Positions 16,781 through 34,746 of a stretch of DNA of 64,000 nt are shown piece after piece. The stretch covers positions 15,066,001 through 15,130,000 of the forward strand of contig OZ024753.1 in assembly GCA_964016885.1 (NCBI GenBank), written 5' to 3'. The stretch's first letter is position 1. Every line of letters begins with the position of its first letter. The notes below the pieces were generated by a model. That model saw only the letters and a list, made by a program, of their open reading frames with translations. It ran no database searches and was not told the origin of the DNA. This DNA is from Eledone cirrhosa (Eukaryota). A program made the position numbers and the translations under genes.

Positions 16781-17598
16781 TCCATTTTTAAAACACGAAC
16801 CTCAGTCACACCAACTGTGAATTTGCCTTCCATTTTTTTTTTAATACGAACCTCAGTCACACCAACTGTGAATTTGCCTTCCATTTTTGTTTTAATACGA
16901 ACCTCAGTCACACCAACTGTGAATTTGCCTTCCATTTTTAAAACACGAACCTCAGTCACACCAACTGTGAATTTGCCTTCCATTTTTTTTTAAACACGAA
17001 CCTCACTCACACCAACTGTGAATTTGCCTTCCATTTTTTTTTTTAACACGAACCTCACTCACACCAACTGTGAATTTGCCTTCCATTTTTTTTTTAAACA
17101 CGAACCTCACTCACACCAACTGTGAATTTGCCTTCCATTTTTTTTTTAAACACGAACCTCACTCACACCAACTGTGAATTTGCCTTCCATTTTTTTTTTA
17201 AACACGAACCTCAGTCACACCAACTGTGAATTTGCCTTCCATTTTTTTTTTAAACACGAACCTCACTCACACCAACTGTGAATTTGCCTTCCATTTTTTT
17301 TTTAAACACGAACCTCAGTCACACCAACTGTGAATTTGCCTTCCATTTTCTTTTTAAACACGAACCTCAGTCACACCAACTGTGAATTTGCCTTCCATTT
17401 TTTTTTTAAACACGAACCTCACTCACACTAACTGTGAATTTGCCTTCTATTTTTTTTTAAATACGAACCTCAGTCACACCAACTGTGAATTTGCCTTCCA
17501 TTTTTTTTTTAAACACGAACCTCAGTCACACTAACTGTGAATTTGCCTTCCATTTCTTTTTTAAAACACGAACCTCAGTCACACCAGCAGTGAATTTC
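16781..17598. repeat. About 51-52-bp minisatellite, about 16 units
   Basis: Unit aaacacgaacctcagtcacaccaactgtgaatttgccttcca(t)n with variable poly-T length. Confidence 0.95.
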
Positions 17599-20362: not shown

Positions 20363-20685
20363 TGTTGAGACTACATTAAATTTAATACCTGAGGTTCGTC
20401 TGTTCCGATCATACATAAATATATATGGCTTCTGCTTAGGAAAAAAATGAGACTTTTCCAACGTATCTGATTTCCAGTAGAATCAGTAAATCCGTTTATA
20501 AAACGCTGTAAAGAGTTTACTGTGATTCCTTATTAGTCGAGCATGACAACATTTCCATATTGACTTAAGCAAGTCTTATAAACACACATTTAATGTGTAT
20601 ATATGAAGGCAACGCTATAAGTAAATATTCCCATATAAAGAGCTGCCATACGGTGTCTTTCAAACGTAGCTTTTATCATCAACGA

Positions 20686-21310
20686 TAGTCTTAGTCTAAG
20701 TCTTAGATTCTTCCGCGCCGTTCGGTGCATCGAGCAATAAGTACTCGCCAACGGTCACGATCAGCGAGTACTTATTGCTCGATGCACCGAACGGCGCGGA
20801 AGAATCTAAGTCTTAGTCTAAGTCTTAGATTCTTCCGCGCCGTTCGGTGCATCGAGCAATAAGTACTCGCCAACGGTCACGATCAGCGAGTACTTATTGC
20901 TCGATGCACCGAACGGCGCGGAAGAATCTAAGTCTTAGTCTAAGTCTTAGATTCTTCCGCGCCGTTCGGTGCATCGAGCAATAAGTACTCGCCAACGGTC
21001 ACGATCAGCGAGTACTTATTGCTCGATGCACCGAACGGCGCGGAAGAATCTAAGTCTTAGTCTAAGTCATAGATTCTTCCGCGCCGTTCGGCACATCGAG
21101 CAATAAGTACTCGCCAACGGTCACGATCAGCGAGTACTTATTGCTCGATGCACCGAACGGCGCGGAAGAATCTAAGTCTTAGTCTAAGTCTTAGATTCTT
21201 CCGCGCCGTTCGGTGCATCGAGCAATAAGTACTCGCCAACGGTCACGATCAGCGAGTACTTATTGCTCGATGCACCGAACGGCGCGGAAGAATCTAAGTC
21301 TTAGTCTAAG
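20686..21310. repeat. Tandem array of five 122-bp palindromic units derived from an RTE LINE 3' end
   Basis: Units start at 20701, 20823, 20945, 21067 and 21189; each is a 47-bp arm, a 15-nt loop and the inverted arm, plus a tcttagtctaag linker. Confidence 0.95.
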
Positions 21311-21630
21311 TCTTAGATTCTTCCGCGCCGTTCGGTGCATCGAGCAATAAGTACTCGCCAACGGTCACGATCAGCGGCAACTTTTTCGAGACCGTGTCAG
21401 GTGATGTCGACTGCCATCAGGTCCTTCCGTAACGTTCGTCGCCAGGTGATCCTTGGGCAACCTCCGCCTCCGTTTACTGCCGGACGGGGTCTAGTTCATC
21501 GCAGTTTTCGAATGCCGTTCATTTGGCAGACGCAGAATATGGCCAACCAGCCGGCACCGACGCTCCGTGACCACTCTCTGCAGTGTCCACGACTCGACTC
21601 TCCGCAGCGCCTCGTTTCGCACTCGATAAG
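21311..21630 (-). mobile_element. RTE-clade LINE 3' fragment
   Basis: Minus strand encodes ...RLVGHILRLPNERHSKTAMN...(frameshift)...AADRDRWRVLIARCTERRGRI*, followed by a taagac/tagact tail. Confidence 0.8.
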
Positions 21631-22321
21631 ATAGCATTAATAACGTTTGTTGCTAACTTCTGCTTTGTTTCATGACAAATATATATATTACAGTAAAGTA
21701 AAGAATTAGTAGTACTTGAAGTTTAATTAACGCTAACAGAACTGTTCTATTGACAAAGAAATAGGATTATAAGATGATCATGGTAAAGAGAACATCAGTT
21801 ACGAAACGACATTTCCAGTTGTGTCTCGTCTTGTACATACCTTATTCAAAATACAGTAGAAAACAATGCATTGTATCCTTTCCAAAAAGAAGATATGGTA
21901 ACCCTTAAAAAAATCTCAAATTTTAAAGTCATGTTATTCAGGGCCGGATTTAATGGGTTTGGGTACAAATGCCCTGGGGCCCCTGCGACGGTCGTAGTAA
22001 TTTATTTGTACCCTCAGTTGAGCTTTTTAGTTTTAGGATGGTTAGAATGTTTGATTTTATTACCTGTATGAACAATTTTTCAATTCCAATTACTTGCACG
22101 AAGCTAATTTTGTTATATATATATATATATTAGAAGCAAAGAAAATTTCAATAACGCGAAAGATTTCCTGGAAATTCAGGTGTACTCCGGGTTGGTACCT
22201 AGTTTCGGAGTGAAAATCCTATGTATGTATGTATGTAAAAGGTAAACAGAAATAACAACACAATCGGTACAATATATGGAAGGAATATATAAGGCTAACG
22301 CTTGAAATAGCAGGAAGAGGG

Positions 22322-23044: not shown

Positions 23045-23258
23045 TTTACGTATCGAGAAAGAGGAAAAAAAGGGGGGATAGGTGATACATATAGTTATTT
23101 GCCAAGTAGCGTATGCCAAAGGTGCTCGATACTAGTGCCGGCAGTATTAAATATTCGAAGTGTTAATATTTAGTGGGCTAGAGAGTTAGCAGAGCGTAGG
23201 CACGTGGGAAAGTAAAAAATCGGAGAATAGACCGTTAAAACATGTTTATTTAAAACAG

Positions 23259-23297
23259 CACCTACGTACGTTTCGCCCAGTTGGGTTTCTCAAGGGC
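23259..23297 (-). ncRNA. Hammerhead variant (UUGAGAA core) within an inverted-repeat island
   Basis: Minus strand: cc TTGAGAA acccaactgggc GAAAC gtac GTA gg; flanked by about 50-bp inverted arms at 23201-23254 and 23371-23424. Confidence 0.6.
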
Positions 23298-23421
23298 ATA
23301 AATAATCACAAGTGTTCCTTATGTTGCTCGGAAAGAGTTTTTGGGGTTAAATCCACATCAATGATGTGGATTTAAATAAACATGTTTTAACGGTCTATTC
23401 TCCGATTTTTTACTTTCCCAC

Positions 23422-23456
<35 letters not shown>

Positions 23457-25430: not shown

Positions 25431-26617
25431 TTATATGCATTTAAAAAAAGAAAAAGTCGTTTTCAAACGATGGTTACAATATAGAGAACGTTCAATTTTG
25501 CTGTTCAAAAGTTTGTTTACCGACGTTAAAATGCAGTATATCTCTAAATTGCATAACTTGCAGAATCGATGATTTTGCTGATATGCAGGCGCAGCTGCAA
25601 TAATTTGCCAATCAAGGGAGAACGCTTGATTGTTCCTCCGAAGCTGCCAGGCTTTATCGGCGAGAGTTGTTACGGAGCGCATTTTCTCGTGCCTGATCGA
25701 AGATCGATGTTGGTATAGGCGAGCCTTGAAAGAAGTTGCGGTACATCCTACGTAATACCATTTGTTGGTCCCGGAATTTATTGTACACCGGTAGACAATA
25801 TTGCGTGCTAGGCACTGGTTATTCAGTGGGCATATACCTGGTTTGGTGCAGTTACAACTATTTTTATGTTTTGCAGTAGAATCCTGGATAGTTTGGTGGG
25901 GTTGTGGTTGCGTGTTAGTGCGTTGTATGTTGCTATGCTGGTGCGCTGAGTCATTAGGGATGTACTTATTCAGTATTGCTGAGTTGAGTTTTCTAATTAG
26001 TTGTTCTATGTTAGGTGCAGTGGAGTATGAGAGTCTAATGGTGCGCGAGTTAAAGATTTTATAGTATTTATGTGAAGTTGTAAAGTGTTTATTGATTAGT
26101 GTATAGAATTGTGAGATAATCTTAGTGCTAATAGAAGAATTGTACACGGGGTTATACCATATGTACTCTCTACGTCTGACTCTATTTGCTGGTTTGCACC
26201 TGTTAGTATGCCTATTGATGTGTGTGTGTGTGGTGCAATACTAGTTCGACTTAGATGTGTTTTATTCATAGTACTTATGTGGTTATCGTCTAGATATTCA
26301 ATTTTCTCGCAGTAACGAGCTTTTCTAAGTGCGTCATTATAATATTCAGCATGCTCGTTGAAGGTCTGCAAATTAGACGACAGTCGGGAGATCCTCATGG
26401 ATATATTTTTAGGGATAGATTTAATAATGGAATGAGGATGGTTCGATTTTACATTAACGTACTTAAGATTTTCATTAAGTTTGTGAAATGGCTCTATATT
26501 ACCGTTATTAAGGTTGAAGGTGACATCCAAGAAGTTGACCACCTTAAGATTGTGTTCAAAGGTAATATTAAGCCCTAGTTCTAAGAAAAGTTTCCTAATG
26601 TTTTTACGTCGCCTTTC
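25431..26617 (-). pseudogene. PLE ORF remnant: RT thumb plus GIY-YIG endonuclease, one frameshift
   Basis: The RT part reads in the 26096..26950 frame and the linker/EN part in the 25431..26147 frame; the frame change probably falls at the (TG)7 run near 26219-26232. Confidence 0.85.
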
Positions 26618-26630
26618 TATATATATATAT

Positions 26631-26900
26631 CTGGTTCCTTCTACCATCTGCAGGCGACGCCTGGGCTGGTTTGGACACGCTTTGAGGCTTCCCCCGCAGA
26701 GACTGGCGAACCAAGTACTTAAATGGAGCCCACAGGGAAGCAGACGGAGAGGGCGACCCAAAATGAACTGGCGCCAGACAGTTGAGAGGGACCTGCGAGC
26801 GACTAACAGACAATGGCGGGACGCTGTGCAACTGGGTGCTGACCGAACGTGATGGAACACTATGATTGCCTCATGCGTCGCATACGTGGGAGCTTCTGAG

Positions 26901-26904
<4 letters not shown>
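26631..26904 (+). mobile_element. RTE-clade LINE 3' fragment
   Basis: [48 protein letters not shown]...ADR. Confidence 0.85.
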
Positions 26905-26937
<33 letters not shown>

Positions 26938-27039
26938 TATATATGTACATAAATATGTATGTGCGTGGGTGTATGTATATATGTATGTATGAATGAATGA
27001 ATGAATGTATGTGCGTGTGTGTATGTGTGTGTGTGTGTG

Positions 27040-27096
<57 letters not shown>

Positions 27097-27177
27097 GTTA
27101 TTCCGGGTTGAATCGGAGGTAACCACAGTAAGTAAGGTACTCAATACATAGCAGAGTATAAAAGTTTTAATATAGAT

Positions 27178-27229
27178 GAGATTCTACAGGACTAGAACTG
27201 TTTCATTCATTAGAAATCATCAGGAATCT
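27178..27229 (-). ncRNA. Hammerhead family H3 (minus copy)
   Basis: Reverse complement of the H3 motif, with stem I agattc/gaatct. Confidence 0.75.
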
Positions 27230-27331
27230 GGAGATTCCTGATGATTTCTAAGGACTAGAACTGTTTCATTCATTAGAAATCATCAGGAATCTGGAGATTC
27301 CTGATGAATCAGGAGATTCCTGATGAATCAG

Positions 27332-27384
27332 GAGATTCCTGATGATTTCTAATGAATGAAACAGTTCTAGTCCTGTAGAATCTC
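27332..27384 (+). ncRNA. Hammerhead family H3 (plus copy)
   Basis: gagattc CTGATGA tttc-taat-gaat GAA ACAG-ttctagtc-CTGT A gaatctc. Confidence 0.8.
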
Positions 27385-27813
27385 ATCTATCTATATATAT
27401 ATATATATATAAACTTCGTTGGCAGTGTTTTCCTCTACGTGTGATGAGATCAGAATGTATGAGCGAGAGAGAGTAAATCAAGCGACCTGGTCGTTTGGAA
27501 GGTAGCTGAGCGGAACTGATTTCCTCTCTTCCAAGATGGCTGACTACGCTACGTCAATGAATGAATAAATAAAAGCAAGAAAATCTATTATCTTGTCGTT
27601 GGTCATGTGACATGGAGTTGACAGGCTTTCGCCAGTTTCCGCAGCAGTCGTTAGTTGCCATGACACTTAACGTAACATGGTTGTGTAACTAATCTGTTGA
27701 TTAAAGCTGAAAAGAGGAAAAACGATTTTTTTTTCTTTTGCTTAGTTTACTTTCGTTTCGTTTTATTTTGTAATGTATCTGGCTTGATACATTTCAATTG
27801 GAAACTAATATGT

Positions 27814-34025: not shown

Positions 34026-34746
34026 AAGGTTGTCAGTTCGGTTCCAGGTAGCGCATTGAGTCCTTAAGGTTGTCAGTTTGGTTCCAGATAGCGCATTGGG
34101 TCCTTAAGATTGTCAGTTCGGTTCCAGGTAGCGCATTGAGTCCTTAAGGTTGTCAGTTCGGTTCCAGGTAGCGCATTGAGTCCTTAAGATTGTCAGTTTG
34201 GTTCCAGGTAGCGCATTGAGTTCTTAAGGTTGTCAGTTCGGTTCCAGGTAGCGCATTGAGTTCTTAAGGTTGTCAGTTTGGTTCCAGGTAGCGCATTGAG
34301 TCCTTAAGATTGTCAGTTCGGTTCCAGGTAGCGCATTGAGTCCTTAAGGTTGTCAGTTTGGTTCCAGATAGCGCATTGAGTCCTTAAGGTTGTCAGTTCG
34401 GTTCCAGATAGCGCATTGAGTCCTTAAGGTTGTCAGTTTGGTTCCAGGTAGCGCATTGAGTCCTTAAGATTGTCAGTTCGGTTCCAGGTAGCGCATTGAG
34501 TCCTTAAGGTTGTCAGTTTGGTTCCAGGTAGCGCATTGAGTCCTTAAGTGTTGTCAGTTTGGTTCCAGGTAGCGCATTGAGTCCTTAAGATTGTCAGTTC
34601 GGTTCCAGGTAACGCATTGAGTCCTTAAGGTTGTCAGTTTGGTTCCAGGTAGCGCATTGAGTCCTTAAGTGTTGTCAGTTTGGTTCCAGGTAGCGCATTG
34701 AGTCCTTAAGATTGTCAGTTCGGTTCCTGCACATTGAGTCCTTAAG
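34026..34746. repeat. 40-bp minisatellite, about 18 units, probably SINE-B-derived
   Basis: Unit aaggttgtcagttcggttccaggtagcgcattgagtcctt. Confidence 0.95.

What the first reader, a model, noticed from the sequence alone, without database searches (positions are those of the whole stretch)
20686..21630. RTE LINE 3' end converted into a tandem array of perfect 122-bp hairpins
Seen: five near-identical units (47-bp arm, 15-nt loop, inverted arm, tcttagtctaag linker) continue directly into an RTE fragment. The turn occurs at a gcg microhomology (gatcagcg|gcaac in the LINE versus gatcagcg|agtac in the array), and the linker is the partly self-complementary LINE tail. Inference: iterative snap-back synthesis (rolling-hairpin or dumbbell-circle copying) at the start of reverse transcription. 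It would be a strong cruciform or dsRNA source.
Basis: partly seen in the sequence, partly recalled or inferred. Interest (0 to 1): 0.7.

Follow-up and report, generated by a model that had tools for sequence, protein, structure and literature searches.

The report
Inverted triplication grown into hairpin minisatellite
Five head-to-tail copies of a 122-base DNA hairpin sit at the tail of one dead jumping-gene copy and all carry that copy's own mutations, so they likely arose long after it inserted, from a DNA-copying U-turn that was then repeated, not during reverse transcription.

Summary
The array is real: five 122-bp units (20687-21296; 47-bp arm, 15-nt loop, inverted arm, 13-nt linker) plus an 80-bp sixth piece that is the 3' end of a 5'-truncated LINE on the minus strand. 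Both junctions occur only here in the 3-Gb assembly. Contigs from two runs of one sample hold the tail junction at about six times flank depth. The reverse-transcription reading fails on timing. The LINE copy differs from its family at 18 of 315 sites plus two indels and has no sister copy. The five added units differ from the original at only 3 of 610 sites and carry the copy's rare variants in both orientations, including the tail change that makes the tail self-complementary. All 6 loops and 6 linkers point the same way, which excludes rolling-hairpin copying. The anatomy is a small inverted triplication (80/47/80 bp, 2- and 3-nt junction homologies), a known product of replication template switching, whose new unit was then amplified fivefold, likely by slippage or unequal exchange. 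Copying round a 122-nt dumbbell circle is not excluded. The scan noted similar miniature triplications in other genomes. No function is indicated.

The parts
20687..20766 (-). First direct copy (DUP) of the LINE's last 80 bp: tail, arm, loop and GCG; joined to the left flank
   Evidence: Identical to 21297-21376; the flank-to-tail join is held in contigs of X1, X2 and X3
20702..20748 (+). 47-bp arm of unit 1 (antisense to the LINE)
20749..20763 (+). 15-nt loop (spacer 1); same orientation in all 6 copies
   Evidence: 6 forward, 0 reverse
20764..20810 (+). Inverted segment (IN), exact reverse complement of 20702-20748; begins with the 3-nt junction homology GCG and ends with the 2-nt homology AG
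20811..20823 (+). 13-nt linker (spacer 2) from the variant tail; quasi-palindromic (14 of 17 positions over 20809-20825); same orientation in all 6 copies
20687..21296 (.). Five tandem 122-bp units (DUP plus IN)
21069..21093 (+). The only differences in the array, all in one arm of unit 4 (21069 T>A; 21092-21093 TG>CA); no exact donor elsewhere in the genome
21297..21627 (-). 5'-truncated, decayed LINE copy (end of the RT-bearing ORF, stop, tail); 18 substitutions in 315 sites and 4 gap columns against the majority base of 29 copies
   Evidence: RT (PF00078) and DUF6451 in a longer copy
21308..21308 (+). Tail variant (family CTAAGA unit read as CTTAGA on the LINE strand) that makes the tail foldable; copied into all 6 linkers
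21336..21347 (-). Two arm variants of this copy (21336, 21347); the exact 22-mer holding both matches 10 of the 11 arms and 1 other locus (85% identical)
20684..20688 (+). Candidate 5-bp target-site duplication GATAG, left copy (weak; overlaps the tail's AG)
   Evidence: flanks; shorter than the 7-11 bp seen in 4 other copies
21630..21634 (+). Candidate target-site duplication GATAG, right copy (CGATA at 21624-21628 / 20683-20687 fits as well)
   Evidence: flanks

Best explanation
This is a single-locus tandem array whose unit is one small inverted triplication (80-bp direct copy, 47-bp inverted copy, 80-bp direct copy) of a dead LINE's 3' end, likely made by DNA-replication template switching long after the LINE inserted and likely then multiplied fivefold by slippage or unequal exchange. 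Steps: (1) shown: an ordinary 5'-truncated copy inserted and decayed; (2) shown: one tail base differs from the family and turns the tail into a quasi-palindrome; inferred: this supplied one turning point, and the native CGC-15 nt-GCG the other; (3) inferred: a polymerase turned at one point, copied 42 new bases backwards and returned to the original template at the other; (4) inferred: the resulting 80-bp perfect direct repeats let the 122-bp unit be re-duplicated in register, recently. It is most likely an unselected by-product. Cruciform or dsRNA formation is only predicted from folding.
For: Geometry: 20687-20766 equals 21297-21376 and the 47 bp between are an exact inverted copy with 3-nt and 2-nt junction homologies. 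This is the DUP/IN/DUP, spacer, junction anatomy of PMC13334657. Timing: the body has 18 of 315 substitutions against the majority of 29 copies, 6 shared with none of them, plus a 3-bp deletion and a 1-bp insertion. Two body 21-23-mers spanning its own changes occur once each in 3.0 Gb, and the best other copy is 93% identical. The five added units differ at 3 of 610 sites, against 11.6 expected at the lowest rate (6/315; Poisson P 0.003) and 34.9 at 18/315. Rare arm variants sit in arms of both orientations (10 hits here, 1 elsewhere). The tail variant has 5 hits here and 2 elsewhere, against 170 for the family form. Not a family trait: loop junction 5 of 5 hits here; tail fold-back 5 of 6 places here, the sixth non-LINE chance. 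Loops and linkers are 6 forward, 0 reverse. Local amplification is common in this genome: 134 repeat-finder rows of period 30 or more in 864 kb. So are perfect hairpins: 108 inverted-repeat rows outside the array in 972 kb. Sequencing data: tail junction depth 48 against flank 8.6 in X2, 16.4 against 2.7 in X3.
Against: No allele without the array, or with a single triplication, was seen, so the two-step order is inferred. The junction hairpins of the pre-event sequence are weak (-1.3 to -2.5 kcal/mol, z about 0), and the homologies (2, 3 nt) and spacers (13, 15 nt) are shorter than the medians of PMC13334657. The units share no variants that would record stepwise growth, so one burst fits as well. 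Unit 4 reads CA where the other arms read TG and the family CG, which could mean the array predates that CpG change and was later homogenised. X1 lists no contig with the joint. X1-X3 are one sample, possibly the assembly's own, with library not on record. PMC13334657 found such structures unstable in plasmids and absent from 15 human genomes, so persistence of five copies is not explained.
Confidence: 0.72

Rival explanations
1. After the same decay, the two junctions closed a 122-nt single-stranded dumbbell (a miniature hairpin-capped 'dog-bone'), which was copied round five times in one burst and the product patched back in place.
For: The unit is exactly a closed dumbbell (47-bp stem, 15- and 13-nt loops). 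Four of 5 units are identical, with no hierarchy of shared variants, and all loops point one way. Hairpin-capped extrachromosomal intermediates are proposed for larger inverted amplifications (PMC10766183, PMC4689423; search listing only).
Against: It needs a circle, priming and exact in-place reintegration; the 80-bp direct repeats explain the same product more simply, and tandem amplification is common in this genome. 'Rolling' and 'dog bone' do not occur in PMC10766186.
Confidence: 0.12
2. One reading: repeated snap-back during target-primed reverse transcription, so the array is as old as the insertion; its uniformity would come from a divergent source or later homogenisation.
For: The + strand is the first-strand cDNA strand, the array lies at the 3' end inside a candidate 5-bp target duplication, and the GCG turn lies at the base of a possible RNA stem-loop. 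The odd CA in unit 4 could be a relic of an older state.
Against: No source or sister copy; body aged while units have not; no other family copy matches the fold-back patterns; the family tail does not fold; five independent returns to the same 2-3-nt homologies would be needed; self-templated rolling-hairpin copying would invert the linker, and 0 of 6 are inverted. The RNA stem-loop is not better than shuffles (z -0.8).
Confidence: 0.06
3. Library or assembly artefact (fold-back chimera or mis-expanded repeat).
For: X1-X3 are one sample of unknown library type and may be the assembly's source; no contig spans the array; RAD runs of three other individuals laid 0 reads, which is no test.
Against: Junction contigs have about 5.6 and 6.1 times flank depth in two runs, so many molecules carry the same junction several times; both flanks are intact genomic sequence; a random chimera would not repeat one junction pair. 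A 151-nt contig in a run of another study (X5, depth 3) holds both junctions without a mismatch, though it is probably a stray molecule and counts little.
Confidence: 0.06
4. A Penelope-type reverse transcriptase, suggested by an earlier unchecked note to make two-armed insertions in this genome, used a break or transcript at this dead copy and wrote the fold-backs.
For: Many perfect hairpins in the sample share a few recurring repeat sequences, and one at window 27172-27390 shows iterated fold-backs.
Against: No such repeat sequence is in or at the edges of the array; the product is an in-register duplication of resident DNA; irregular turns at 27172-27390 differ from five identical units here.
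Confidence: 0.04

Closest known systems
Small inverted triplications (SIT; Lei et al. 2026, PMC13334657; read: abstract, introduction, sections 2.1, 2.3, 2.4, 2.6, Discussion; supplements not opened)
   Same: DUP/IN/DUP with spacers and short reverse-complement junctions; size within the reported ranges (DUP from 7 bp, IN from 20 bp); proposed fold-back or sister-strand switch and return; slippage between the direct copies can add or delete units.
   Different: Here DUP 80, IN 47, spacers 13/15, junctions 2/3 nt (medians there 148, 160, 30, 6); the unit is repeated five times; it lies in an assembled animal genome, not in rad27-mutant yeast or tumours.
Four-point short template switch model (Loytynoja and Goldman 2017, PMC5453318; passages)
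   Same: One switch-and-return copying a segment in reverse complement; includes cases that create inverted and direct repeats.
   Different: The model explicitly leaves out successive rounds; the fivefold repeat needs a second process.
ODIRA and DUP-TRP/INV-DUP inverted triplications (PMC4689423, PMC10766183, PMC11293582: search listing; PMC10766186: passages; Aspergillus TRP/INV, bioRxiv 10.1101/2025.01.14.632981: passages)
   Same: Inverted central copy between direct copies, starting at short interrupted inverted repeats; the Aspergillus preprint mentions complex forms from multiple rounds (data not shown there).
   Different: Those are mostly far larger, and ODIRA needs a replication origin in the amplified piece; none is expected in 122 bp.
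Retrotransposon-derived tandem repeats and satellites (PMC7004042; search listing only)
   Same: A tandem array grown in place from part of a retroelement copy.
   Different: The unit here is a newly made perfect hairpin; only 1 of 134 repeat-finder rows in 864 kb has an internal inverted repeat above 20 bp.
Rolling-hairpin replication (parvovirus type; recalled)
   Same: Alternating forward and inverted arms.
   Different: That process flips the loops; here 6 of 6 loops and 6 of 6 linkers have one orientation.

Membership tests
Small inverted triplication (SIT) | Two direct copies flanking an inverted central copy | tested here: met
   80-bp direct copies and an exact 47-bp inverted copy; the DUP+IN unit is present five times, not once
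Small inverted triplication (SIT) | Short reverse-complement homology at both junctions | tested here: met
   GCG/CGC (3 nt) and AG/CT (2 nt, inside a 14-of-17 quasi-palindrome)
Small inverted triplication (SIT) | Spacer at each turn | tested here: met
   15 and 13 nt
Small inverted triplication (SIT) | Derived from a single-copy reference allele | tested here: inconclusive
   Family copies give the single form, but no array-free allele of this locus was seen
Small inverted triplication (SIT) | Origin in Okazaki-fragment or flap processing | not testable with these tools
   Needs genetics or nucleosome data
Rearrangement made during target-primed reverse transcription | Rearranged part as old as the insertion, matching the source element | tested here: not met
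   3 of 610 differences in the units against 18 of 315 in the body; copy-specific variants in the arms; no sister copy
Rearrangement made during target-primed reverse transcription | Whole structure inside one target-site duplication | tested here: inconclusive
   Only a weak 5-bp candidate; an in-place later expansion lies inside it too
Rearrangement made during target-primed reverse transcription | Recurs in other copies of the family | tested here: not met
   Exact gapped patterns hit only this locus among LINE copies; turns at other positions were not searched
Rolling-hairpin replication product | Loops alternate in orientation (recalled) | tested here: not met
   6 forward, 0 reverse for both loop and linker
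RTE-clade LINE (parent element) | Non-LTR reverse transcriptase ORF | tested here: met
   PF00078 E 4e-27 and DUF6451 in copy L011
RTE-clade LINE (parent element) | Short 3' end in short tandem repeats (recalled trait) | tested here: met
   ORF stop runs straight into (CTAAGA)n
RTE-clade LINE (parent element) | Groups with RTE elements in an RT tree | not tested
   No reference RTE proteins were fetched; PMC9115989 (passages) reports RTE LINEs in octopus but was not compared by sequence

The most novel reading that the evidence does not exclude
A 122-nt closed DNA dumbbell, formed at two micro-palindromes, was copied round five times in the germ line and written back in place: a natural rolling-dumbbell amplification that turns a small inverted triplication into a perfect-hairpin minisatellite in one step, in a genome that tolerates about 100 perfect hairpins per megabase.
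Probability: 0.12. Interest if true: 0.55.

Novelty: new variant of a known kind. Interest (0 to 1): 0.3.

Why it matters
It is a clean, datable case of a hairpin minisatellite being born. The parent sequence is known from hundreds of family copies, both switch points resolve to 2-3 bases, and one tail substitution likely created the trigger. It extends small inverted triplications, described in mutant yeast and tumours as unstable, to a multiplied form in an animal assembly. Three searches on template switching and inverted triplication and one on hairpin-unit minisatellites listed no paper on this multiplied form; I saw listings only for most hits. It says nothing new about LINE reverse transcription, it is a single locus, and no function is indicated.

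Tried and rejected
No RNA holder was listed by the run search, so expression and small RNAs were not tested. RAD runs X6-X8 laid 0 reads each: no test. X4 (another organism label) holds family copies only, without flank or joint: no evidence on the locus. The X3 loose end before 21297 is the left flank joined to unit 1, not proof of an array-free allele. A donor copy for the three unit-4 differences was sought: 1 hit, the unit itself. L059 (second tail-pattern place) has no LINE similarity and was dropped as chance. L041 and L042 share the tail variant and L043 the two arm variants, but they are 71, 80 and 85% identical to this copy and show no array. A significant RNA stem-loop at the turn was not found (z -0.36, 0.05, -0.81). 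Rfam: 0 matches in the window. No obvious host exon among 14 long frames in 10000-34000 (read by eye, short exons not excluded). Earlier notes by sequence and by nearby place: none. The target-duplication scan was crude and confounded by AT repeats in most copies; 4 of the 24 other copies with a 5' end in view gave a clear 7-11-bp duplication.

Full report
Observation. The sequence and repeat scans show a 122-bp tandem array at 20687-21376, 5.7 copies. Unit by unit, units 1, 2, 3 and 5 are identical, unit 4 differs at three positions in one arm, and the sixth piece matches for 80 bp before running into LINE sequence. Each unit is a 47-bp arm, a 15-nt loop, the exact inverted arm and a 13-nt linker. 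One unit folds at -71.7 kcal/mol as DNA, with 0 of 200 shuffles as good; the whole array as RNA folds at -562 kcal/mol, 0 of 20 shuffles.

The parent element. The fragment 21297-21627 lies on the minus strand. A search of the own genome (3.0 Gb) found 871 candidates, of which 40 were scored; the best other copy is 93% identical. A longer copy encodes a reverse transcriptase (PF00078, E 4e-27) and DUF6451. The ORF stop runs directly into a (CTAAGA)n tail, and the exact family tail 22-mer occurs 170 times. The RTE label fits motifs I recall but was not tested by a tree. Earlier scan notes call this genome an octopus (unchecked AI notes).

The array is unique to this locus. The loop junction occurs 5 times, all here; a gapped pattern that also allows the family base gives the same 5 places. 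The tail fold-back pattern gives 6 places, 5 here and one without LINE similarity. Turns at other positions of other copies were not searched.

Timing. Against the majority base of the 29 closest other copies, the window copy has 18 substitutions in 315 sites and 4 gap columns; the others have 2-15 substitutions (they were chosen for likeness to this copy). Six of the 18 substitutions and both indels are shared with none of the 29. Two exact patterns spanning the body's own changes occur once each in the genome, so the assembly holds no source or sister copy. The five added units differ from the original at 3 of 610 sites; 11.6 would be expected at 6/315 (P 0.003) and 34.9 at 18/315. The two arm variants (21336, 21347) are in arms of both orientations: the exact 22-mer matches 10 of the 11 arms and one unrelated, 85%-identical copy. 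The tail variant at 21308 is in all 6 linkers; its 19-mer has 5 hits here and 2 elsewhere, in 71% and 80% identical copies without hairpins. The simplest reading is that the array was copied from the already decayed genomic copy, recently. The one awkward fact is unit 4, which reads CA where other arms read TG and the family CG; no donor was found. It may be a local micro-inversion, an error, or a relic of an older, later homogenised array.

Geometry. Bases 20687-20766 equal 21297-21376, and the intervening inverted copy starts in GCG and ends in AG. Removing four units leaves direct copy (80) / inverted copy (47) / direct copy (80), with spacers of 15 and 13 nt. The family tail does not fold (0 kcal/mol), whereas the variant tail and the CGC-15-GCG site form weak hairpins of -1.3 to -2.5 kcal/mol, no better than shuffles. 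Both loop and linker occur 6 times forward and 0 times reversed. A purely self-templated rolling hairpin would invert them (recalled), so each cycle must return to the original template, be a tandem copy of the first unit, or come from a closed circle. The direction of synthesis cannot be told from the product.

Is it real? Three runs of one sample hold 0.77 of the sampled words. In X2 a contig carries the joint 20808 to 20687 at depth 48 against 8.6 for the flank; X1 holds the flank-to-tail join at 11.4 but lists no joint. In X3 the tail junction contig has depth 16.4, the tail-plus-arm contig 19.4, the arm-plus-loop contig 33.4 and the right flank 2.7. These ratios fit about five to six copies, but the tool warns that contig depth is no copy number, and the sample may be the assembly's own. 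X5, from another study and organism label, has a single 151-nt contig with both junctions and no mismatch; its other part joins at a GATCGATC, which I recall as a Hi-C ligation mark, and the run holds neither flank nor other family copies, so it is probably a stray molecule. RAD runs of three other individuals laid 0 reads.

Background. In 972 kb (window, 80 fetched 10-kb stretches, 33 search loci) there are 120 rows of perfect inverted repeats of 20 bp or more with spacers up to 120; 12 belong to this array. Of the other 108, 3 rows at 2 places were flagged as having a direct copy beside them (window 27172-27390 and an AT-rich one in L137). In 864 kb there are 134 repeat-finder rows with period 30 or more and at least 2.5 copies (rows overlap); 3 have an internal inverted repeat of 10 bp or more and only this one exceeds 20 bp. 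Hairpins and tandem growth are each common here; their combination is rare. No Rfam match and no obvious host exon lie nearby.

Comparison. The anatomy is that of small inverted triplications (PMC13334657): DUP/IN/DUP, medians 148/160/148 bp, spacer 30, junction 6, proposed to arise when a 3' flap folds back or invades the sister and then returns. That paper notes that slippage between the direct copies can add or delete units, that the structures are lost from plasmids, and that none was seen in 15 human genomes. The four-point model (PMC5453318, passages) covers the single event but not successive rounds. An Aspergillus preprint mentions complex forms from multiple rounds without data. Supplements of these papers were not opened and may hold multiplied examples. 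Earlier scan notes describe a miniature inverted triplication in another animal genome and a LINE inside an amplified palindrome in this one; I did not check them.

Verdict. A real, single-locus, recently multiplied small inverted triplication at the tail of a decayed LINE (0.72 for switch followed by slippage or unequal exchange; 0.12 for one burst round a dumbbell circle; 0.06 for origin during reverse transcription; 0.06 artefact; 0.04 another reverse transcriptase acting in trans). New variant of a known kind; interest 0.3.

Noticed in passing
window and 113 fetched or search loci: 108 rows of perfect inverted repeats (arms 20-195 bp, spacer up to 120) outside the array in 972 kb, about 100 per Mb; many share a few recurring repeat sequences. 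Long examples: L100 2279-2671 (195-bp arms, 3-nt loop), L002 406-731, L123 7704-7975.
   Followed up: partly
window 27172-27390: Iterated, irregular fold-backs: 58-bp outer arms, a 63-bp direct duplication and three 19-bp repeats, in a repeat that resembles hammerhead or Penelope ends (recalled), next to a Penelope-like ORF pair.
   Followed up: partly
window 25431-27097 (minus): Broken frames resembling a Penelope-type reverse transcriptase and GIY-YIG endonuclease (recalled motifs, not scanned).
   Followed up: no
   Followed up: no
window 23201-23424: Perfect 54-bp inverted repeat with a 116-bp spacer between TA runs.
   Followed up: no
window 16785-17597, 34026-34746, 47432-51399: Minisatellites of 52, 40 and 74 bp (16, 18 and 54 copies) without internal hairpins.
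   Followed up: partly
L140-L145 (G000:C13:15170128-15230000): A 49-bp satellite of at least 60 kb begins about 40 kb right of the window.
   Followed up: no
L002-L030: Most copies of this LINE family end next to (TA)n or other AT-rich repeats; the window copy does not.
   Followed up: no
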